Below, in pieces: positions 15,400-57,044 of a DNA stretch of 64,000 nucleotides. Source of the stretch: a virus; IMG/VR virus record IMGVR_UViG_3300027749_000038; one strand, given 5' to 3'. The notes under the pieces were generated by a model. The model was not told where the DNA came from. It saw only the letters and a program-made list of their open reading frames with translations, and searched no databases. Made by a program: the position numbers and the translations under genes. Every line of letters begins with the position of its first letter. Positions within the stretch are counted from its first letter, which is position 1.

Positions 15400-15984
15400 T
15401 TAGTGTGTAGCACCTTTAGAAAGATTGTCTTTAGCCCATAACGGTTGGAGGTTGGTATAGTGATTAGCTCTTTTAACTTCTTCTGGGTCTAATAGATTAA
15501 AACTAGACAATGGTTTGATGTGATCGATATGCCAAGTATACAAACCATGATTTTTCCAAGACATACCTTCTTTGAATTGAGATTCGATATGTTTAACCAC
15601 TTCTTCTGTAGAACATCCAAAAGTTACTTTTGTTGTTCTGACAACTTTGCCGTTATATATGTTCTTCAGAACCTTATCTATTCTATTTCTAAGACTACAC
15701 AACAATTTATAAGAGGGATCTTTTGCTTTGCGTTGTTTGTGATAGTTATATGTTTTGAGAGTTTTTCTATAAGCTCTTCGTCTCTCTTTGAAGGATTCTC
15801 TTGATCTTTGAATCTTTTGTTGAGTTCTTACCTTTTCTCGATTGTTTGCATTATATGTTCTACAATTTAAGTATCTACACTTTTTACATTGATTTCCCAC
15901 TTTATAAAAAAGATCAATGGATTTTAGTTCTGAACAAATAGAACAAACTTTAGCGAGATCGGTAGTATGGTTATTAGTTAACAT
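15400..15984 (-). mobile_element. free-standing HNH homing endonuclease (paralog of 3327..3917)
   Basis: Same N-terminus (TNNHTTxLxKVCSxCSE) and WHIDHIKPL...NHYTNLQPLWAKDN. Confidence 0.88.
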
Positions 15985-15998
15985 AGGTATAAATATTT

Positions 15999-16059
15999 AT
16001 CCCCAAGGACCGGGTTTTGGTTAACATAGGAAATTAAATGAGCGAAGGTCCTTGGGGAT
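15999..16059. repeat. 13-bp perfect inverted repeat with 35-nt loop upstream of the HNH gene
   Basis: atccccaaggacc / ggtccttggggat; homolog of 3932-3992 with two compensatory pair changes. Confidence 0.95.
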
Positions 16060-16181
16060 TTGATTCCCTTCCCGGGAGTTTTCATTCCCTGCCCAATTAT
16101 CTATAACTCGTTCTCAATCAAGGTTCTTCCCCTAGAGAAAAAAAGATGGAAGTTCCCTGTACTTTGACTCATAATATTCTC

Positions 16182-16358
16182 ATGATTCGTTCCTTGTCCC
16201 TCTTCGCGTTCCTGGTGTCCCTCACCTACCTCACCTGCCCGGACATCCTCACCTACGCAACCCTCACCGTCCTAGCAGTCCTTTCCCTGGCGATCCACCT
16301 TTCCCACTACGTCCTCCTGGGACTGTTGTTCTTCGCAGTCATCCTCATCGCTCGATAA
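16182..16358 (+). CDS. early small membrane protein
   Basis: Very hydrophobic 58 aa; promoter copy at 16147. Confidence 0.7.
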   Translation: MIRSLSLFAFLVSLTYLTCPDILTYATLTVLAVLSLAIHLSHYVLLGLLFFAVILIAR

Positions 16359-16396
16359 GCCTTGTGTTTCCCCTCTTCCTCCTCCATAATAGAAAC

Positions 16397-16549
16397 ATGA
16401 TTAACGAATACGACATGTCCACCGTAGACAAGCTCAACCTCATCGCTCAGGTGTTCGGGAAGATCGCGATCAACTTCTGGCCGGTGATTGTCCTGGGAAT
16501 CGTTGCAGCAGTGATCCTCCACAAGCATGAGACCCGCAGGACGCGCTAA
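16397..16549 (+). CDS. early single-TM protein
   Basis: Promoter copy at 16362; hydrophobic segment followed by a basic tail. Confidence 0.7.
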   Translation: MINEYDMSTVDKLNLIAQVFGKIAINFWPVIVLGIVAAVILHKHETRRTR

Positions 16550-16557
16550 TTATTAAC

Positions 16558-16788
16558 ATGGGACTCGAGAAAGCAATTCAATATGGTAAAGAACACCGTC
16601 AGCCTTATCGCGGAAGTAAAGCTTGGGATTCTCATTGTAGGAATCACAACGCTTGTGACTATTGTAGGAACAATCGACTTCACGCCGACCAAGTCCGGGA
16701 ATATAGTGCCCGAGAAGAACCCCTGGATTGGGAACTCGACCAGAGCCTCTATCCAGAGTGGTTTGAGCTAGACGGAGTCGCGGAATAG
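16558..16788 (+). CDS. conserved phage protein (KAIxxGKEHRxPYRGSKA..CRNH..C.YC family)
   Basis: Recognisable Cys/His motif family of unknown function. Confidence 0.8.
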   Translation: MGLEKAIQYGKEHRQPYRGSKAWDSHCRNHNACDYCRNNRLHADQVREYSAREEPLDWELDQSLYPEWFELDGVAE

Positions 16789-16825
16789 AGTGGAGGTTCC
16801 CCACATTAACCCTTAAGATATTAGC

Positions 16826-17011
16826 ATGATGAACGAAACAGAGAAGAAGTACAAAGCCAACGTCAAGCGCCTCGAACGGTTCGCCAAAGCTTTCACCAAG
16901 CTGAAGGTGAAGTTCCCCGAGGTCGTAGTCAGAGGAGACCAGAACGGATTTGCCCAGGCGACCATCCACGGTCTCCCAGGAGAGCAAGCCCGGGCCTATT
17001 TGAGCAACTAA
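16826..17011 (+). CDS. early hypothetical protein
   Basis: Promoter copy at 16791. Confidence 0.75.
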   Translation: MMNETEKKYKANVKRLERFAKAFTKLKVKFPEVVVRGDQNGFAQATIHGLPGEQARAYLSN

Positions 17012-17050
17012 GCCTTGCGGTTCCCCACATTAACCCTTAAGATAATCACA

Positions 17051-17248
17051 ATGAGTTACAAAGTCCTCACCCGTTCACTCGCCACCGACAAGTACCCCTA
17101 CCGGACCCATTCCGAGCACGAGACCCTCTGGCAGGCTATGTCAGTAGCTTCCCGGCTTGAGAAGAACACCGAGCTGGATGTCCTGGTCGAGCTCACCGAC
17201 AATGAGATCGTCAAAGTTCCCTTCAACGTCCTCGCTCTTGAAGCTTGA
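17051..17248 (+). CDS. early hypothetical protein
   Basis: Promoter copy at 17015. Confidence 0.75.
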   Translation: MSYKVLTRSLATDKYPYRTHSEHETLWQAMSVASRLEKNTELDVLVELTDNEIVKVPFNVLALEA

Positions 17249-17280
17249 GCTTCCCCACATAAACCCCTAAGATAAACACC

Positions 17281-17466
17281 ATGACAGACATCCTCGAATT
17301 CCGCAAGCAACTCGCAGCCAAGCACCCTAAGCTCGAACAGGTGATGAGAGGGCCAGCGCCTTCCCTCAAACTGCAAGCCACGATGCAGAAGTTCAGCCAG
17401 CAGCTCTGCTTGGCTAGGGCCAAGCAGAGGGAAGGAGTGGTCCTCAAGACTCCCGAGCGTGAGTAA
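17281..17466 (+). CDS. early hypothetical protein
   Basis: Promoter copy at 17245. Confidence 0.7.
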   Translation: MTDILEFRKQLAAKHPKLEQVMRGPAPSLKLQATMQKFSQQLCLARAKQREGVVLKTPERE

Positions 17467-17504
17467 GTGTTGAGCTTCCCCCTTATAACCCTTAAGATAT
17501 TTAC

Positions 17505-17888
17505 ATGATGAATGACACGATGATTGCCCGCACCGAACTCGAAGAGCTGATGGATGAGTATTGTGACTACCACAAGGACGTCCACGGTGTCAAGGCTCGT
17601 TGGATCTACAACACCGGAGTCACGGTAGAGGAGCTGAAGAGGATGCTCGCTAGCCTGGAACGTCAGTACCACGAGCAGGTCGAGTTCGAGCGCAAGCAGT
17701 CGGCTCGCAATGAGCAGGCAGCTCGGGAGCAGATCCGGGTCCTCATGCAGCACGGGGCTCAGGACGTGGCGATGGCGATCCGCTGGTTACACGATGCTCA
17801 GGACACCCAAGGGGACAATCGGTTCCTCGACTTCGACCTGGGATGTACCTACGGCTTCATCGACAGCCTTCTCAAGAACGGCCTCTAA
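17505..17888 (+). CDS. early conserved hypothetical protein (Y.DYHKDVHGVKAR motif)
   Basis: Promoter copy at 17470. Confidence 0.8.
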   Translation: MMNDTMIARTELEELMDEYCDYHKDVHGVKARWIYNTGVTVEELKRMLASLERQYHEQVEFERKQSARNEQAAREQIRVLMQHGAQDVAMAIRWLHDAQDTQGDNRFLDFDLGCTYGFIDSLLKNGL

Positions 17889-17932
17889 GAGAGGTGTTGA
17901 GCTTCCCCAGTATCTCCTTTAAGATCTTAACA

Positions 17933-18169
17933 ATGAGCAATACGATTACTCAAGCAGACCTCTACAACGACTACCTCACCGCCTTTCGAGCCTTGCACCC
18001 TTGTGACGCCAGAGACCTGAGACGCTGTGCCAGGATAGAGCTTCTGAGTCGCGGGGACCGAGAGATTAATTCTGGTGACGTAGACAACCTGGTGTATACC
18101 TGGTTCAAACTATACGAAAGCTTCAGCCAGGAAGTGATCGACGGACTCCGAGACTATTACCTCGACTAA
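17933..18169 (+). CDS. early hypothetical protein
   Basis: Promoter copy at 17897. Confidence 0.75.
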   Translation: MSNTITQADLYNDYLTAFRALHPCDARDLRRCARIELLSRGDREINSGDVDNLVYTWFKLYESFSQEVIDGLRDYYLD

Positions 18170-18241
18170 AGACTTTAGTCGGGGTAAATTACCTCGACTA
18201 AGGTGTTGAGGTTCCCCAGTACATCCTTTAATATCTTAACA

Positions 18242-18538
18242 ATGAAAGACACCATGACCACAAAAGCAACCATCATCGAATCCGTCAAGACTGCAATTGC
18301 CACAGCAACGACCAACCTTATCAACTTCAGTAATGGAGGCATGTTGGTTGATGAAGAACTCGATATGGCTGTACATGCCTTTGTTGTTAATGGAGTTCTC
18401 TTCTCTACAGGATGGGCTGATACTACTCACTACAGCTTCCTGCAGAATGATGGCCCTCTAACTTGCGATGATGCTAAATTACTTCTCTGGTGGTTAGAAC
18501 AGAAAGATACTTGGATAAACAAGATTGGTTGCAACTAG
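18242..18538 (+). CDS. early hypothetical protein
   Basis: Promoter copy at 18206. Confidence 0.75.
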   Translation: MKDTMTTKATIIESVKTAIATATTNLINFSNGGMLVDEELDMAVHAFVVNGVLFSTGWADTTHYSFLQNDGPLTCDDAKLLLWWLEQKDTWINKIGCN

Positions 18539-18595
18539 GACCCCAAGCTCCTCCTCTGGTGGCTCGAACAGGGTGACACCAAGATCAACAAGTAG
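18539..18595 (+). pseudogene. orphan 3' relic DPKLLLWWLEQGDTKINK* duplicating the upstream gene's C-terminus
   Basis: Matches DAKLLLWWLEQKDTWINK of 18242..18538 but uses GC3-rich codons; no start codon. Confidence 0.75.
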
Positions 18596-18633
18596 TCCTT
18601 GCAGTTCCCCACTTAGTCCTCTAATATTATTAC

Positions 18634-18945
18634 ATGATGAAGAACACCAAGAAAGAGTTAGTCAAGGTCAGCAGCCAGTTCCGCCTCTTAGCTCGGCATG
18701 CAGGCTGTGTAGAGATCATTGAGGAACGCTATGCCAACCCTAGCAAGCCTAACCTCACCAAGCTCTGGGTCGTGAATGGGGTCCATGAGTTCAAGCAACA
18801 AGGGCATGCTCGCACCTATATGCGTATGCTGGCAGACAGGGTCGGTGGGGATCAGAAACTTACTGACGAGACCTACAAGGCAGCTTGGGATAATGTCATT
18901 CCCACCTACACCCCAGAAGCTAAGGCAGCAGCCATTCTGGGTTGA
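18634..18945 (+). CDS. early hypothetical protein
   Basis: Promoter copy at 18599. Confidence 0.8.
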   Translation: MMKNTKKELVKVSSQFRLLARHAGCVEIIEERYANPSKPNLTKLWVVNGVHEFKQQGHARTYMRMLADRVGGDQKLTDETYKAAWDNVIPTYTPEAKAAAILG

Positions 18946-18979
18946 GCTTCCCCACATCCTCAGCTAATATAGATACAAG

Positions 18980-19237
18980 ATGAAGAACACATACACCCGA
19001 GTCCTCAGCACGAAGCAAGTCAACGTCCTCGCCAAGGAAGCCAAGCGCGTCCAGTACATCGTCAATAAGGTCCGCGTCTTCCACGCCTCTTCGGTGGATG
19101 CCATCACGGTGCTTGACAATGAGGACAATGCCCTGGTGTTCAAAGCCCTCCGCGCGAACAGAGACACCTGGATAGTGACCTTCTCGAAGACCTACTGGCA
19201 GAGTCCAGAGGACGCCGTACTTGCCCAGGGCATCTAA
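18980..19237 (+). CDS. early hypothetical protein
   Basis: Promoter copy at 18942. Confidence 0.8.
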   Translation: MKNTYTRVLSTKQVNVLAKEAKRVQYIVNKVRVFHASSVDAITVLDNEDNALVFKALRANRDTWIVTFSKTYWQSPEDAVLAQGI

Positions 19238-19279
19238 GTAGTCCGTGAGCTTCCCCATTACCTAAGCTAAGATATAAAC

Positions 19280-19498
19280 ATGATGAAGAACAAATACATC
19301 CAGTCCGAAGCAGCCCAGTCCCACGCCGCAGAGATCCTCAAAGGAGGACATGTCTCAGTGGCTGAGGCAGTCCAGATCATCCTCCAATACATCTCCACCT
19401 GCCGTGGCCGAGCGAACCACGCCGACGGAGTCTCCTACATGGAGGCCGTGCTCGAGCTAGTGTGTCAGGCCTGTGAGCCAGAGCAGGTGGTCCTCTAA
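19280..19498 (+). CDS. early hypothetical protein
   Basis: Promoter copy at 19245. Confidence 0.75.
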   Translation: MMKNKYIQSEAAQSHAAEILKGGHVSVAEAVQIILQYISTCRGRANHADGVSYMEAVLELVCQACEPEQVVL

Positions 19499-19540
19499 GT
19501 AGGCCTTGCGGTTCCCCATCTCCTCTGCTACTATTATTAC

Positions 19541-19798
19541 ATGATGAAGAACGACATGAACCACACCACCGCTGAAGACCATACCACCCCAATCGTCGGC
19601 GCCTCCTACCTCTGGCAGGGCATGCCCTGTGCAGTCCTGGAGACGAGGCCTAGTGAGCTCCGCACCTACACGTGGGATGTGAAGGTGGAGTACTTCAGCA
19701 AGGCCGACAAGTGCTACCTCTCTCTTTGGACTCCGTGGCTTCCAGGATGCTTCCTCCTGACCTTCAAGCCTGGTGGTCAGCTGACCCGAGTAGCGTAG
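19541..19798 (+). CDS. early hypothetical protein (last of the array)
   Basis: Promoter copy at 19506. Confidence 0.75.
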   Translation: MMKNDMNHTTAEDHTTPIVGASYLWQGMPCAVLETRPSELRTYTWDVKVEYFSKADKCYLSLWTPWLPGCFLLTFKPGGQLTRVA

Positions 19799-19810
19799 GC
19801 GGTGAGTCAA

Positions 19811-20072
19811 GCCCCAGGGGCGGAGAGGGACCTCTGGGGCGTTAGAGAGGCGCGGCAATTTTTTACACCGTGGTATGAAAGGACCCCGGTGTTTTGGAAA
19901 CACCCTATAGCTGGGGAAGGCGGCTGGGTGGGGTAGGGACTATTCGGGTACCTAGTCCATATCCCTCCTATACCGCTCTATTAGCTAGTGGGTACCCCCT
20001 ATGGCCTTTCAACGGAGACGGCTTGCGAAAAGGCTAAAAGCATCCGGTCCGCGGGGTACCCACTTTCATATC
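19811..20072 (+). ncRNA. candidate structured RNA (hairpin plus multi-branched domain)
   Basis: Stems 19811-20/19831-40, 19872-81/20063-72, 19888-94/19898-904, 19920-19976 and 19989-98/20053-62; G.U pairs all fit the + strand. Confidence 0.5.
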
Positions 20073-20097
20073 TTACCTTCCCCGGATAAATATCTCC

Positions 20098-20376
20098 ATG
20101 GTATTTTACGAAGAAGGTTCCTATGAAAGATTGCGCGCTGATGCTAGAGAGACTGTTAAGAATCTCCGAAGAGAGGCGGATAGTTATATAGCTCGTATAT
20201 TATCTTTACAAAATTTACTGGCGGAGGTGATGACTCGTAATGCTGATTTAGAATTAGAGAATGAACATCTTAAGGATTTTATTACCGAAAGAGATAAAGA
20301 ATCTAATTTGGTAAGTGAATCTATGATGCCAGTTCTTCAAGAAATAGTGGAAAGAAAGAATAAGAAATCTAAGTAA
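20098..20376 (+). CDS. late coiled-coil protein
   Basis: ATAAATA 5 nt before ATG; heptad pattern. Confidence 0.75.
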   Translation: MVFYEEGSYERLRADARETVKNLRREADSYIARILSLQNLLAEVMTRNADLELENEHLKDFITERDKESNLVSESMMPVLQEIVERKNKKSK

Positions 20377-20381
20377 GGAAT

Positions 20382-21416
20382 ATGATTTCGTTTAAGGCTT
20401 TTTATCGGGTGAATGCTATTCTCAATGAAGGGGGGCTTGCTTCTACTCTGACTCAACAGACTGTTATTAATCCTAGGACTATTGCGATAGTGAAACCTAA
20501 GATAGAGAGTTTGATGGCTCAGTATAATGAATATGCCAGAACGAAGAACTTGCCACCAGCTAAGTTTGGAGCCTTTCTAGGAAGCACGGCTCACTATCAA
20601 GCAGATGAAGCCGATCCTAATACTCAGAAGAATGTCTACGGAGATATAGACATACAAATAGAGGTTCCTCCTTATGAAGAGACTCCTCTAAAGAACCAAA
20701 GCCAATGGTACAAAGTATTCGGACAATTTATCCAAGAGGTTCAACCAGAAGGCATTGCTCCAGACTCTCCAGAAGGGCATCCTATCATTAACATAGGAGG
20801 AGATAATTGGGTCCAGGTAGACTTCATAATTCATCAAAGCCATCTATTAGAATGGGGTAGGTACAGAGCTACTCCAGAACGAGGTCTCAAAGGAATGTTA
20901 TATGGAAATCTGATTTCTGTTTTAGGAGACTGTTTAAATCTCAGTATTCAACACAACGGAGTCCAACTCAAAGTAAAGGAAGGAAAGAGACAACCCTTTG
21001 CTTCCGCCAGAGGACAATTTGAATTGCATACGGTTTCCACCAATCCTCGAACCTTTATCTTAGATATTCTCAAGTATGAAGCAGGTACAGACGCCATGGT
21101 AGCCACAGCCGATCCTTTACTCAAAGCCAATCCAGGAATTAATACTGAAGACGTTAAAGCAGAATATCTAATAAAAGGAATCAAAGGTTTAGTAAAGAGT
21201 TTCGATCGAAACGGAATGTTAGGCAAAGGAAACCTATCGGAATATCAAACTCCTGAAGACTTCCTTAATAAATTTTGGGAACTCTATACAGATAAGATAG
21301 ACGTTACTCTTAATGCTACTAAATGGGATAAAGCTCCAGCAGAAAAGGTAGCTCAGGCTCATGCCAAGATCAAAGGAGATCTGGCTAAGGTTAAAAAGAT
21401 TTTTCAATCTATTTAA
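20382..21416 (+). CDS. Pol-beta-superfamily nucleotidyltransferase-like protein with CTS-like leader
   Basis: GST...GDIDI and VQVDF motifs; MISFKAF...ILNE|GG leader. Confidence 0.7.
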   Translation: MISFKAFYRVNAILNEGGLASTLTQQTVINPRTIAIVKPKIESLMAQYNEYARTKNLPPAKFGAFLGSTAHYQADEADPNTQKNVYGDIDIQIEVPPYEETPLKNQSQWYKVFGQFIQEVQPEGIAPDSPEGHPIINIGGDNWVQVDFIIHQSHLLEWGRYRATPERGLKGMLYGNLISVLGDCLNLSIQHNGVQLKVKEGKRQPFASARGQFELHTVSTNPRTFILDILKYEAGTDAMVATADPLLKANPGINTEDVKAEYLIKGIKGLVKSFDRNGMLGKGNLSEYQTPEDFLNKFWELYTDKIDVTLNATKWDKAPAEKVAQAHAKIKGDLAKVKKIFQSI

Positions 21417-39098: not shown

Positions 39099-39719
39099 GG
39101 GGGCGTATTGGTTTCGACTGAGCGCTGAAAACCTTAGTTGCAATCCGAGGAAGTCTGGTTGGCCTCGTTAAAATCTCTGGACAAAACAAATAAATGCAAC
39201 TGATAATACAGAAGCACTCTTAGCTGAAGCAACGCACATCATCAACAACTTCGAGGACTACCTCGCAGAAGAAGAGATGTACGATCTCGCAGCCTAACAA
39301 ACAGAAATGGATCCTATTAAAATTTCTGGAGTACCACAATAGGTTTGAGTAAAATCGTGAACCTCAGGAAAAACAATCGAGAGGAGTTGGGCCCCTTGCA
39401 GTCCAACAGGTAGACCTTAACTAGTTAGCAGCCTATGGTCTTTAAGAGCTAACAAAATATGATTGTAGACGCTAAAGTCTAAGTTTTCAGGACAGCGGTT
39501 CAACTGAAATGCAGGGTCGGCTATTTGGAAACGAATAGTTCGTAAGGTGTATATCGGCGAACGGTTTAATATCCCAACACCGAGAGAAATCATAGAAATA
39601 TGAGACTCGTAGAGACTACCATCACCTACCTAAAGTAGAAATACTAAGGTAAAGGAATAGTCCAGACTACAAACACGTATGTGGTAGTGAAAACTATAGT
39701 AGTATGCCGCTCGCCTCCA
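39099..39719 (+). ncRNA. ssrA: tmRNA, interrupted by a group I intron
   Basis: GGGGGCG/CGCCTCC-A acceptor stem with G3.U70; GGTTTCGAC; helix 2 (ctgaaaac/gttttcag, gcaatc/gattgt); tag ORF 39196-39297 ending YDLAA*; T-arm agcgg-ttcaact|ccgct. Confidence 0.93.
39506..39706 (+). mobile_element. ORF-less group I intron (201 nt) in the tmRNA T-loop
   Basis: Follows an exon U and ends in G; R element gtagagacta (39609-18) and S element aaggaatagtcc (39652-63) form P7; removal restores a perfect T-arm. Confidence 0.88.
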
Positions 39720-54326: not shown

Positions 54327-55382
54327 TTAGATTGTGCAACTTCCACCAACACAGCCACTTCCTTCGTCTGTAGCAGATTGTTTATCTCCGTCATAGGTAT
54401 TGCTGTAATAAAGAGTTTTTACACCCATACTATAAGCATATAACAATTCTTTAAGAATTACCGAATCCGGCAATGCCTTATTTGGATAATGATCATAATT
54501 GTAATACAGATTTGCTGAGATAGCCATATCTGTCCATTTTTGAATTGCTGCTACTATATTGATATAACCAGTGTTATCTGGCATATCAAATTGTAATGTA
54601 TACTTGTTTTTATATGTGGAATAATTTGGAACCAACAAAGGCACTGAATTAGCTTTAGAACCTTTATAGGTAAGCAAAGACCTAGGAGGTTCAATACCGT
54701 TGGTAGAATTTTGAATAACAGAACTAGATTCACACGGCATCATGGCGGTCAATGTAGAATGTCTCATACCATGAGCCAACACTTTCTGTCTTAATTCTTC
54801 CCAATCTAAAGAAGGTTTGCGGGTTACTACTTGATCTACTTTCTTTTTATAGGTGTCTATAGGCAAGATACCTTGAGAATATTTGGTGGTATTAAATTTT
54901 TCACACGGTCCCTTTTCTTTGGCTAGCTCTATAGAAGAGGAAATAAGGTGGTATTGTATTTTTTCCATCAAAGTATCTACAAAGTTAGGAGCCTCTGTAT
55001 CCATATACTTGAGATTATTCTTAGCTAAGAGAGCTGCTAAATTAGTAATTCCTACACCGAGACTTCTACGTTTTCTTGTAAAATTCTCTGCTGCTTTGGT
55101 GAAGTATTCTTGATAATCAATAATTTCATCTAGCATGCGTACAATTGTATCACAGGTATCTATTAAATCTTGATCATCTTTAATTTCTAACACATTAATA
55201 GCAGAAAGAACACAAATACCAATTTCCCCTTCTGGATCATCTATATGTTGAATTGGTTTGGTGGGATGAGTAACTTCAACACAATTGTGTACCAATATCT
55301 TATTGGCGTAAAAATTGCGGTTGTCTTTTACACTGATATCATATACTGCTTCTCGGTTTAACACTTTTTTAATTTTAATCAT
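54327..55382 (-). CDS. nrdA: RNR alpha C-terminal half with 33-aa split-intein C fragment (55284-55382)
   Basis: MIKIKK..VYDISV..NFYAN.ILVHN|CVEV; MPCESSS, GIEP, KTLYY. Confidence 0.92.
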   Translation of the reverse strand: MIKIKKVLNREAVYDISVKDNRNFYANKILVHNCVEVTHPTKPIQHIDDPEGEIGICVLSAINVLEIKDDQDLIDTCDTIVRMLDEIIDYQEYFTKAAENFTRKRRSLGVGITNLAALLAKNNLKYMDTEAPNFVDTLMEKIQYHLISSSIELAKEKGPCEKFNTTKYSQGILPIDTYKKKVDQVVTRKPSLDWEELRQKVLAHGMRHSTLTAMMPCESSSVIQNSTNGIEPPRSLLTYKGSKANSVPLLVPNYSTYKNKYTLQFDMPDNTGYINIVAAIQKWTDMAISANLYYNYDHYPNKALPDSVILKELLYAYSMGVKTLYYSNTYDGDKQSATDEGSGCVGGSCTI

Positions 55383-55394
55383 AATTCTTGTTTT

Positions 55395-57044
55395 TTAAAT
55401 TAAATTTAAAACATCTGACTCCAACAATTCACTAGCCTTAACATAACCTCGGTTGTTAGTGTAAATTAAATGTTCCGGTGTGCAACGAATGGTTTGATTA
55501 GTTTCTGTATCTGTAATTTCAACCAATTCTGCTTCGGGATGAGTCATTGTAGCTCCGGTGAGCAATTTAAATTCATTTTCTTGCGTATCTAGATTCTTGG
55601 ACCAAACGTACATTTCTTCTAAATCCTCTTTAGAATTATATAATTCTGTTATTTGTTCTAATGTTAAAACTGATGACATGAAATTGTTATCTTCTTTGTT
55701 TTTGATAAGACACAAAACTTCCGTGTCACCTGTAAGACACAGATTTGTCATTGAAACTCTTTCTAAGAAAGATCCGTGTTCATTACAATGATCCATATTC
55801 ATCACGTAATATCTTCCAGTCTCTGTTCTTTCTTTAGTAAATTGAGACAATAGAGCAGAAGCTTTGACCTTCCTTTTATACTTTATCGATTTATCTGCTT
55901 CACATTTTATATATAATTCATCAAACTGCGGAAGACCAAAAGATTCGGTCAATTCTGGAACTTCATGTGGAGAAAATAATGTTATAGTTTCATTTTTCAT
56001 GAAGCGCTCATAAAACAATTTTGAAAATTGAATTACATAATCTACTTTTCTAACTCGATTATCTTCAGTACCACCGTTATTTTTTAAAGAGAGAATATCT
56101 TCAATTTCATAATGCCAGATTGGAAAGTTAACCGTAGCTCCCCCTCCTCTGATACCATTTTGTTGACAAGACTTGACGGTGGCTTCAAATACTTTAAGAA
56201 AAGGAATAATTCCGGTATGAATAACACTACCTCCTTTGATCTCTGTGCCAATTCCTCTAATACGACCAAAATTCAATCCGATTCCGTATCTTTGAGTAGT
56301 AGCAAAACCAGCAGCAGTATTGGAACTAAAAATAGATTCCTTAGTGTCACCCACATCAATGAGACAACAAGACGCGTATTGTTTAAGAAGACCTCTAAGG
56401 CCAGCCATTTGCGGGGTAGGTAAATTGATTTTAAATTTACTGAATTTGTCGTATGCTCTTTTGACATAATTTAAACGGGTATTTTGAGAATAATTAATAT
56501 GGCTTACCATGGCTGCAAGCATATAAGCAAATTGAGGAGTCTCGAATATCTCCTTGTTCTTTCTATTTTGAATGAGATATTTGTCACACAATTGCTTTAA
56601 TCCAGAATAGGTAAAGTTGTAATCTCTGTCGTGATTAATTTTGTCATCTAATTTGTCTATCTCTGCTTTAGAATATTTTTCTAAAATTTCTGGATGATAT
56701 AGATTTTTATCTGTATTGTTTTTAATAAAATCATAAAGTCGTGGAGGATTTTTTCCACCCCATACATCTTTACGTATTTGATAATTCAATAATCTAGAGG
56801 CAACCCATTGATAATTAGGATTCTCTTCATTAAACAAATTAATAGAAGCGTCTATCAGTACCTTGTGAATTTCCTTAGTAGTAATGCCATCCGCTAAATT
56901 TAATTTAGTATTAATAGCTATGTCCGAAACACTAACTCCGGTTATATTTTGGGATCCCCATTTTATTACTTTGTATATGTTTTCTACATTAAATGGAACC
57001 CGTGTTCCGTCCCGTTTTGTAACGTGAAGAATTTTTTCACTCAT
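55395..57044 (-). CDS. nrdA: RNR alpha N-terminal half (ATP cone) with 114-aa split-intein N fragment (55395-55739)
   Basis: VTKRDG ATP cone, PTPQM, ASCCL; MTNL|CLTGDT..CTPEH. Confidence 0.92.
   Translation of the reverse strand: MSEKILHVTKRDGTRVPFNVENIYKVIKWGSQNITGVSVSDIAINTKLNLADGITTKEIHKVLIDASINLFNEENPNYQWVASRLLNYQIRKDVWGGKNPPRLYDFIKNNTDKNLYHPEILEKYSKAEIDKLDDKINHDRDYNFTYSGLKQLCDKYLIQNRKNKEIFETPQFAYMLAAMVSHINYSQNTRLNYVKRAYDKFSKFKINLPTPQMAGLRGLLKQYASCCLIDVGDTKESIFSSNTAAGFATTQRYGIGLNFGRIRGIGTEIKGGSVIHTGIIPFLKVFEATVKSCQQNGIRGGGATVNFPIWHYEIEDILSLKNNGGTEDNRVRKVDYVIQFSKLFYERFMKNETITLFSPHEVPELTESFGLPQFDELYIKCEADKSIKYKRKVKASALLSQFTKERTETGRYYVMNMDHCNEHGSFLERVSMTNLCLTGDTEVLCLIKNKEDNNFMSSVLTLEQITELYNSKEDLEEMYVWSKNLDTQENEFKLLTGATMTHPEAELVEITDTETNQTIRCTPEHLIYTNNRGYVKASELLESDVLNLI

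What the first reader, a model, noticed from the sequence alone, without database searches (positions are those of the whole stretch)
19811..20072. Unrecognised multi-branched RNA terminating the early array
Seen: a GC-rich non-coding block with hairpin 19811-40, closing helix 19872-81/20063-72, arms 19884-19916 and 19920-19976, and 19989-98/20053-62 (extendable to a 12-bp perfect IR) enclosing gccttt/aaaggc and a GAGA tetraloop. All G.U wobbles fit the + strand. An alternative helix acaccg/cggtgt (19865-70/19887-92) competes with the closing helix, and GGGTACC occurs three times. Inference: an undescribed ncRNA, RNA switch or ribozyme, or a DNA structure marking a genome end or origin at the early/late boundary.
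Basis: partly seen in the sequence, partly recalled or inferred. Interest (0 to 1): 0.7.

Follow-up and report, generated by a model that had tools for sequence, protein, structure and literature searches.

The report
Two conserved RNA modules ending phage early genes
The gene-free, GC-rich block is real and conserved in related uncultured freshwater giant phages, but it is two separable elements that match no catalogued RNA family, not one branched RNA: a hairpin-plus-core tail after the early genes, and a mobile 78-nt pseudoknotted module.

Summary
Window 19799-20097 is non-coding and lies between the last leaderless early gene and a T4-late-like promoter at 20086. It is conserved in about 11 sequence variants of related uncultured freshwater phages. 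No Rfam family matches it. It is not one closed multi-branched RNA.

5' part, 19811-19986:
- Hairpin H1 keeps its shape with three unrelated stem sequences.
- A roughly 70-nt core is conserved in sequence, but no helix in it covaries.
- A variable arm rich in GGTACC follows.

3' part, 19987-20064, the "PK module":
- 96% of cells are paired and 16 of 29 pairs show compensatory changes, against 1-6 in slid controls.

The two parts occur apart in other phages.

On the minus strand, a promoter-like TAAATA or TAAGAT abuts the outer stem in every lineage. A U-run follows the stem in five of six lineages, though not in this window. The module is therefore probably a small RNA gene and a two-way stop signal.

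Function is inferred; no expression data could be obtained. I rate it a new orphan phage RNA family of moderate interest. The scan has not noted this sequence on other DNA.

The parts
19799..19810 (+). Spacer after the stop codon (19796-98) of the last early gene, 19541-19798.
   Evidence: Sequence; ORF list. The gene is conserved in L007, L035 and L037.
19811..19840 (+). Hairpin H1: 10-bp stem with a 10-nt loop, ending the early array. It has the shape of a terminator stem.
   Evidence: z -3.5. Three unrelated stem sequences occupy the same place: GCCCCAGAGG, GACCUCAGGG in L007, and a 13-bp GGGCCACCUGGUG in L035. In G001 it is followed directly by AUUUUU. It is absent in L037.
19841..19912 (+). 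Sequence-conserved core: GAGGCGCGG, a U-run at 19859-64, CACCGUGGUAUG..AGGACCCCGG, and UAUAG. Two mutually exclusive local pairings are possible: 19851-55/19868-72 and 19869-75/19883-89.
   Evidence: Alignment A6 of 10 variants has 80% mean column identity. The pairings are 92-96% compatible but nearly invariant, so they give no covariation. Nucleotide identity is 71-80%, like the neighbouring genes. Fold z is only -1.0.
19913..19986 (+). Variable arm with a G-rich and a pyrimidine-rich strand (hairpin 19920-76) and one GGGTACC (19946-52). UAUACC at 19969-74, within CUAUACCGCU (19968-77), is complementary to the core's GGUAUG.
   Evidence: Changes between window and L002 are mostly G.U-compatible on the plus strand. 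Other lineages have different arms and 2-6 GTACCC-type repeats. A UAUACC-type complement is present in most lineages, and L037 has a matching double change, GCUAU/AUAGC.
19987..20064 (.). PK module, 78 nt. Outer stem P1 is 19987-98/20053-64. Pa is 20003-09/20029-35. Bipartite hairpin Pb is 20013-26/20040-51, with a 13-nt loop at 20027-39. Pa pairs with the Pb loop, so the two form a pseudoknot or are alternative folds. The strand is unresolved; the minus strand is favoured.
   Evidence: Model R1. Clean alignment A7 has 96.3% of cells paired and 16 of 29 pairs with double changes, against 1-6 in slid controls. z is -2.8 (plus) and -3.0 (minus). There is one copy in a complete 227-kb phage genome.
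20070..20075 (-). -10-like TAAGAT on the minus strand, 5 nt before P1, with TGGAGA 17 nt upstream (20098-20093). Other lineages have TAAATA at the same place.
   Evidence: Flank table. TAAGAT is the -10 of this phage's early cassettes. ATATCTTACC is kept in window, L017 and L005 while the bases around it change.
20086..20100 (+). Late-type promoter ATAAATAT followed by the leaderless ATG (20098) of the next gene. This marks the right-hand edge of the block.
   Evidence: The motif TAAATAT, followed by a few bases and then ATG, precedes many genes of the window. It is conserved in L002, L005, L006 and L025.

Best explanation
The block is a composite boundary region made of two independent elements.

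(1) On the plus strand, the early transcripts end in hairpin H1 and run into a conserved core and variable arm of about 150 nt. I read this as the structured 3' tail of the early array. It stops or attenuates host-polymerase transcription and protects the 3' end. It may be processed into a stable RNA.

(2) The 78-nt PK module is a separate, mobile, single-copy element. Its long outer stem works as a stop signal in both directions between the early unit and the first late gene. Its minus-strand transcript starts at a promoter that abuts the stem and, in most lineages, ends at a U-run right after it. That transcript would be a small pseudoknotted RNA of unknown target.

Shown: conservation, separability, and the covarying helices H1, P1, Pb and Pa. 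Inferred: transcription, strand, termination and any trans-acting role.
For: Conservation and novelty:
- Homologues occur in about 11 variants.
- There is no Rfam match, no match among GenBank phages, and only one IMG/VR record.

Structure:
- H1 covaries.
- The PK helices covary strongly.

Terminator reading:
- In G001, H1 is directly followed by U5.
- L035 has a canonical hairpin plus U6 terminator exactly where the PK module sits in the window.
- In G001 the PK module lies at a convergent gene junction, right after the stop of an SprT-like gene.
- P1 is almost purely Watson-Crick, so it can form on either strand.

Minus-strand gene reading:
- TAAATA or TAAGAT lies 3-6 nt before P1 in all eight variants, while the flanks differ.
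- A U5-8 run follows P1 in five of six lineages.
- The flanking genes in L032 and G001 run on that strand.
- TAAATAT behaves as the late promoter in this window.
Against:
- In this window, H1 is separated from the U-run by 17 nt, and the minus-strand U-run after P1 is missing. Neither hairpin is therefore a textbook terminator here.
- The + strand U-rich tail after P1 changes to A's in L017 and L005.
- A simple stop signal does not explain the invariant 20-nt loop region and CUUUCAA. Three of the six lineages were found with that very 20-mer, so its invariance is partly by ascertainment.
- Wobble pairs do not settle the strand. U.G at one Pb pair and the terminal G.U of Pa fit the plus strand. 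Four A.C cells fit the minus strand.
- Pa and the full Pb look sterically hard to form together; this is my own geometric reasoning.
- The 5' core has no covariation at all. It could therefore be a DNA or protein-binding site.
Confidence: 0.45

Rival explanations
1. One reading: one plus-strand multi-branched RNA of about 260 nt (ncRNA, switch or ribozyme), closed by 19872-81/20063-72.
For: The window's own MFE fold draws this closing helix and the arms. The 5' part is about 8 kcal/mol more stable on the plus strand. Window and L007 differ by an apparent double change in the closing helix, GAAAG/CUUUC against GCGAG/CUCGU.
Against: L017 and L005 break the closing helix without compensation. The halves occur alone or 8 kb apart and pointing opposite ways in other phages. 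The whole-block z is only -1.8 on both strands. No Rfam ribozyme or riboswitch model matches.
Confidence: 0.08
2. The PK module is a plus-strand element. In the window's lineage it would be part of the early 3' tail, for example an exonuclease-resistant or protein-binding pseudoknot, or a structured terminator.
For: In six variants it follows the early array on the same strand. The terminal G.U of Pa (7 of 8 sequences) and a U.G in Pb of L007 fit the plus strand. The loops are A-rich, as in many H-type pseudoknots (own knowledge). A TTTACC-18-TATAAT site precedes it in G001.
Against: In L032 both neighbours run on the other strand. No consistent plus-strand promoter exists across lineages. The U-tail after P1 is poor and mutates to A's in L017 and L005. 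The minus-strand signals are more regular.
Confidence: 0.2
3. A DNA-level element. The GGTACC-type repeats and the strictly Watson-Crick hairpins would be binding or extrusion sites for a phage protein. The site could be a replication origin, a packaging or injection-stop site, or an operator at the early/late border, in the manner of the T5 first-step-transfer boundary (own knowledge).
For: GGTACC is clustered locally, and GTACCC-type repeats recur in all relatives. P1 and Pb have almost no wobble pairs, so they form equally on both strands. The 5' core is conserved in sequence without covariation. A conserved G-run lies on the transcribed strand. The orientation of the PK module relative to its neighbours is not fixed.
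Against: Stems that change sequence while keeping pairing point to folding rather than to sequence recognition of duplex DNA. Two of the three GGTACC copies are simply the arms of P1. L012 and L021 have P1 stems without GGTACC. No read-end or terminal-repeat evidence could be obtained.
Confidence: 0.15
4. The 5' core is a regulatory RNA switch, an attenuator or a put-like antiterminator. It would decide whether early transcription reads through into the late genes, using the mutually exclusive pairings 19851-55/19868-72, 19869-75/19883-89 and GGUAUG/UAUACC.
For: Three overlapping complementary segments are each 92-96% pairable in all variants. L006 and L025 change CCCCGG to CCGCGC, which perfects the pairing with GCGCGG. 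L037 changes GGUAU to GCUAU together with AUACC to AUAGC. The element sits between the early genes and a terminator in L035.
Against: There is no statistically supported covariation. Many alternative partners exist because the motif is repeated. Single-sequence folds differ between lineages. z is -1.0.
Confidence: 0.1

Closest known systems
Intrinsic (Rho-independent) and bidirectional terminators
   Same: Stable GC-rich stems sit at the end of transcription units. In G001, H1 is followed by U5. In five lineages P1 is flanked by an A-run on one side and U-rich sequence on the other. In G001 the module sits at a convergent gene junction. L035 has a plain terminator in the same slot.
   Different: P1 encloses 54 nt of conserved, covarying structure rather than a short loop. 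In this window neither hairpin is directly followed by a U-tract on the relevant strand.
PeSL promoter-early/stem-loop cassettes of T4-type phages (PMC2839356, PMC4122927)
   Same: These are composite promoter and terminator motifs at the borders of small variable early genes. Here the block closes an array of promoter cassettes, and the PK module moves between genomic contexts.
   Different: PeSLs are short and repeated many times per genome. The elements here are single-copy, much larger, and have conserved internal structure.
Small phage antisense or stable RNA genes, such as lambda OOP RNA and T4 stable RNAs C and D (own knowledge)
   Same: On the minus strand the PK module looks like a self-contained unit of about 80-90 nt, with its own promoter and a stem plus U-run end. 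In the window's lineage it points against the early genes.
   Different: There is no sequence or model similarity. Transcription is not shown. Most lineages end it before it could overlap any gene.
H-type pseudoknot aptamers, such as the SAM-II and preQ1-II riboswitches (own knowledge of their architecture)
   Same: A hairpin loop pairs with a flanking strand. A-rich linkers and an invariant loop sequence are present. Two folds of similar energy are possible, a Pa hairpin or Pb.
   Different: No Rfam model matches. The module does not lie in a 5' leader, because a promoter separates it from the next gene. The whole element is enclosed by a 12-bp stem.

Membership tests
Any Rfam 15 family, including riboswitches, self-cleaving ribozymes, group I/II introns, 6S, RNase P and Y RNA | A covariance-model match at or near the family's gathering score | tested here: not met
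   There is no match in the block at gathering score. At E up to 10 only sub-threshold hits appear, far below their cut-offs (miRNA, lncRNA, sRNA, CRISPR-repeat and IRES models), in the window, L035 and L007.
tRNA / tmRNA | Cloverleaf or tRNA-like domain detected by ARAGORN | tested here: not met
   ARAGORN finds nothing in the window. The only tmRNA match is at 39107-39506.
Intrinsic terminator (H1, plus strand) | GC-rich stem-loop downstream of a gene | tested here: met
   The 10-bp stem starts 12 nt after the stop codon, has z -3.5, and covaries.
Intrinsic terminator (H1, plus strand) | U-tract immediately after the stem | tested here: not met
   In the window the U-run (19859-64) starts 18 nt after the stem. 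The feature is met only in G001, where that spacer segment is deleted.
Intrinsic terminator (P1 of the PK module, minus strand) | U-tract immediately after the stem | tested here: not met
   A U5-8 run is present in L007, L006, L025, L012 and L021. The window, L002 and L017 read UAGCUAAUAGAG or similar instead.
PeSL cassette | A short promoter plus stem-loop unit repeated at many gene borders in one genome | tested here: not met
   The window has only one copy of either module, and the complete 227-kb G001 has one PK copy. The repeated early cassettes of the window have no stem-loop.
Riboswitch or cis-regulatory leader | Located in the 5' untranslated leader of the regulated gene | tested here: not met
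   A late-type promoter and a leaderless ATG lie between the block and the next gene. The downstream gene differs between lineages.
Self-cleaving ribozyme | Site-specific self-cleavage | not testable with these tools
   Only model searches were possible, and they were negative.
Genome terminus, packaging site or injection-stop site | Read starts, terminal repeats or physical ends at the site | not testable with these tools
IMG/VR classes G001 as linear, with no end repeats found, and its copies of the modules lie roughly 53 and 61 kb into the record.

The most novel reading that the evidence does not exclude
The PK module is a new class of self-contained phage small RNA, about 80 nt, with its ends clamped by a 12-bp stem and a loop-to-flank pseudoknot. 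It would be expressed from a promoter abutting its first base and would act in trans, as a protein sponge or as a switch between the Pa and Pb folds. Together with a three-way RNA switch in the 5' core, it would time the hand-over from early to late transcription in a lineage of uncultured freshwater giant phages.
Probability: 0.15. Interest if true: 0.8.

Novelty: new member of a known kind. Interest (0 to 1): 0.5.

Why it matters
Giant phages of lakes are known almost only from metagenomes, and their regulatory RNAs are uncharted. This work defines two conserved non-coding elements at the switch point between host-polymerase early genes and T4-like late genes.

One of them is a compact module with unusually clean covariation that hops between genomic contexts. 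It comes with exact coordinates, a covariance model built here (R1), and a concrete, testable prediction: a minus-strand RNA of about 80-90 nt.

If that RNA acts in trans, or if the core is a switch, this would be a new handle on how such phages time their gene expression. If both elements are only elaborate terminators, the finding is a useful annotation but ordinary biology.

Tried and rejected
Database and collection searches:
- Rfam at gathering and at permissive thresholds, on the window and two homologues, gave nothing.
- ARAGORN gave nothing.
- DNA and protein searches of GenBank phages gave no match.
- No whole genome is held for the window.
- IMG/VR pattern scans found only G001. The 13 hits of a relaxed pattern were G001 again plus 12 others that failed the model.
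- The metagenome scan gave 20 loci. Eleven carried the real module and nine were chance matches to the 20-mer.
- A literature search for the invariant loop sequence found nothing.
- The scan's earlier notes hold no look-alike sequence.

Ideas rejected:
- Protein coding. Indels break every frame. A mini-ORF MxGPRxFKNTL starting at 19875 is truncated in L006 and L025 and has no AUG in L037.
- A repeated element or generic terminator. Both modules are single-copy.
- Retron, group I intron or CRISPR-like repeat. There is no reverse transcriptase, no interrupted gene and no model match.
- The consensus scan for sigma-70 promoters and terminators found nothing useful in 19400-20400.
- RNAalifold on the whole 5' part gave a weak consensus, because the variable arm cannot be aligned.

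Full report
**Setting.** The window is part of a large uncultured phage.
- It encodes a ribonucleotide reductase large subunit in two pieces, each with an intein-splicing match, collagen-repeat fibre proteins, glycosyltransferases and a tmRNA. No whole genome is held for it.
- Positions 16.1-20.1 kb form a GC-rich island, 50-60% against about 36% in most of the window.
- The island is packed with small plus-strand genes. Each is preceded by a sigma-70-like cassette, TTGnGC, a 17-nt spacer, TAAGAT, then ATG 6-9 nt later.
- The finding is the gene-free stretch 19799-20097. It lies between the last of these genes (19541-19798) and ATAAATAT at 20086, followed by a leaderless ATG at 20098.
- TAAATAT followed by a few bases and ATG precedes many genes in the window. 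It resembles the T4 late promoter TATAAATA (for the window; own knowledge for T4).

**Is it more than chance?**
- As a single sequence the whole block folds only marginally better than shuffles, z -1.8 on either strand.
- Split up, hairpin 19811-40 has z -3.5 and the stretch 19987-20064 has z -2.8 (plus) and -3.0 (minus). The middle, 19841-19986, has only -1.0 and -1.4.
- The real evidence comes from relatives. I traced homologues of the downstream 344-aa protein and of the upstream 85-aa protein to their contigs. I also scanned collections for a conserved 20-mer.
- This gave about 11 distinct variants of the block in freshwater metagenomes.
- The non-coding core is 71-80% identical between lineages, similar to the flanking genes at 74-87%.
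- Indels of 1 and 17 nt exclude a conserved reading frame.

**Two modules, not one RNA.** The 5' and 3' halves are inherited separately.
- In the complete 227-kb record G001 (locus L012), the 5' half follows the last GC-rich early gene. The 3' half lies 8 kb away, pointing the opposite way, and is single-copy.
- L009 and L037 have only the 5' half, which runs straight into the late promoter.
- L035 has a canonical terminator, GCACA..UGUGC plus U6, in the slot of the 3' half.
- L021/L032, an AT-rich phage, has only the 3' half.
It is broken without compensation in L017 and L005.
- The alternative helix acaccg/cggtgt is lost already in relatives that are 96% identical.

**The 3' half, the "PK module", 19987-20064.**
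- A gapless alignment of eight sequences already showed 91% of cells paired and 14 pairs with changes on both sides. Slid controls gave 37-47% and 3-8.
- After fitting to a covariance model (R1), nine sequences give 96.3% paired and 16 of 29 pairs with double changes. Slid controls gave 37-47% and 1-6, and no shuffle out of 500 reached the observed covariation score. That alignment was fitted to P1 and Pb, but not to Pa.
- The helices are:
  - P1, 19987-98/20053-64, with at least four unrelated sequences;
  - a bipartite hairpin Pb, 20013-26/20040-51;
It is paired in all sequences and has one covarying position, C-G to U-A, in three sequences.
- Pa pairs with the 13-nt loop of Pb. The two therefore form a pseudoknot or are alternative folds. 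Minimum-energy predictions pick one or the other in different lineages. A 3-nt linker seems too short for Pa and the full Pb to coexist; this is my own geometric reasoning.
- CUUUCAA and the loop region UUGCGAAAAGNCUAAAAGCA are invariant. Three of the six lineages were found with that very pattern, so this invariance is partly by construction.

**Which strand?** Wobble pairs are too few to decide. One U.G pair and the terminal G.U of Pa fit the plus strand, and four A.C cells fit the minus strand. The flanks are more telling.
- On the minus strand, TAAATA lies 3-6 nt before P1 in L007, L006, L025, L012 and L021. In window, L017 and L005 the motif is TAAGAT, the early -10 of this phage, with TGGAGA 17 nt upstream. 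The surrounding bases differ between lineages.
- Five of six lineages have a U5-8 run immediately after P1 on that strand. The window's own lineage does not.
- In L032 both neighbouring genes run on that strand. In G001 the module follows the stop of an SprT-like gene on that strand, at a convergent junction.
- I therefore favour a minus-strand unit of promoter, structured RNA of about 80 nt, and stem plus U-run. Because its stem is almost purely Watson-Crick, it can also stop transcription coming from the other side.

**The 5' half.**
- H1 keeps a perfect hairpin with three unrelated stems. In G001 it is directly followed by AUUUUU. In the window 18 nt intervene before the U-run, and L037 lacks H1 altogether.
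- The core behind it is conserved as sequence. Two local pairings are 92-96% compatible but invariant, so covariation is nil, and they exclude each other.
- A longer-range pairing of GGUAUG with a downstream UAUACC is possible in most lineages. L037 shows one matching double change. The motif is repeated, however, so several partners exist.
- The arm 19920-76 is specific to the window's own lineage.
- GGTACC-type repeats recur in every relative. Two of the window's three copies are simply the arms of P1.

**Comparison with known systems.**
- No Rfam family matches, and no GenBank phage carries the sequence.
- The closest known kinds are listed under Closest known systems. They are intrinsic and bidirectional terminators, the PeSL promoter-terminator cassettes of T4-type phages, small phage RNA genes, and H-type pseudoknot aptamers.
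- In each case a defining feature that I tested is not met in this window, as set out in the membership table.

**Verdict.** The elements are real, conserved and uncatalogued, but they are modular. Their most economical role is to end and insulate the early transcription unit, with the PK module probably also being a small RNA gene.

Noticed in passing
window 3091, 6335, 6589, 8103, 8869, 13980, 14646, 17503 (minus strand): The early promoter cassettes (TAAGAT ATTTAC ATGATG) read CATCATG TAAATAT CTTA on the opposite strand. Each one therefore carries the late-promoter motif pointing backwards. This might fire antisense transcription into the preceding early gene at late times, or it may be a by-product of the sequence.
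   Followed up: partly
window 16100-20097: There is a sharp GC-rich island, 50-60% against about 36% in most of the window. It is made only of small leaderless early genes. The same contrast is seen in relatives: the G001 locus L012 rises to 57% GC beside the 5' module.
   Followed up: partly
window 19875-19910: A mini-ORF AUG..UAG of 11 codons (MKGPRCFGNTL) lies in the conserved core. It is kept as MRGPRQFKNTL in L007 and L009, and in related form in L012 and L035. It is cut to 5-6 codons in L006 and L025, and it has no AUG in L037.
   Followed up: partly
L017:355-385: A tripled AUACCUCC-type unit lies in the variable arm. Pyrimidine runs containing CCUCC, which resemble the anti-Shine-Dalgarno sequence, recur in this arm in several lineages, for example CACCUCCUAA in L006.
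   Followed up: no
window 39107-39506: Rfam finds a tmRNA (65.7 bits) that ARAGORN does not report. Earlier notes of the scan attribute this to an intron in its T-loop.
   Followed up: no
window 54327-57044 (minus strand): The ribonucleotide reductase large subunit is split into two ORFs. The end of the first and the start of the second both match the intein splicing domain.
   Followed up: no
window 15999-16059: A 13-bp perfect inverted repeat with a 35-nt loop lies just upstream of the start of the HNH endonuclease gene (15400-15984, minus strand). It marks the left edge of the GC-rich island.
   Followed up: no
L012:2535-2540 and L032:5317-5322: In both phages where the PK module follows a gene on the minus strand, that gene's TAA stop codon is the first three bases of the TAAATA motif that abuts the module.
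   Followed up: partly
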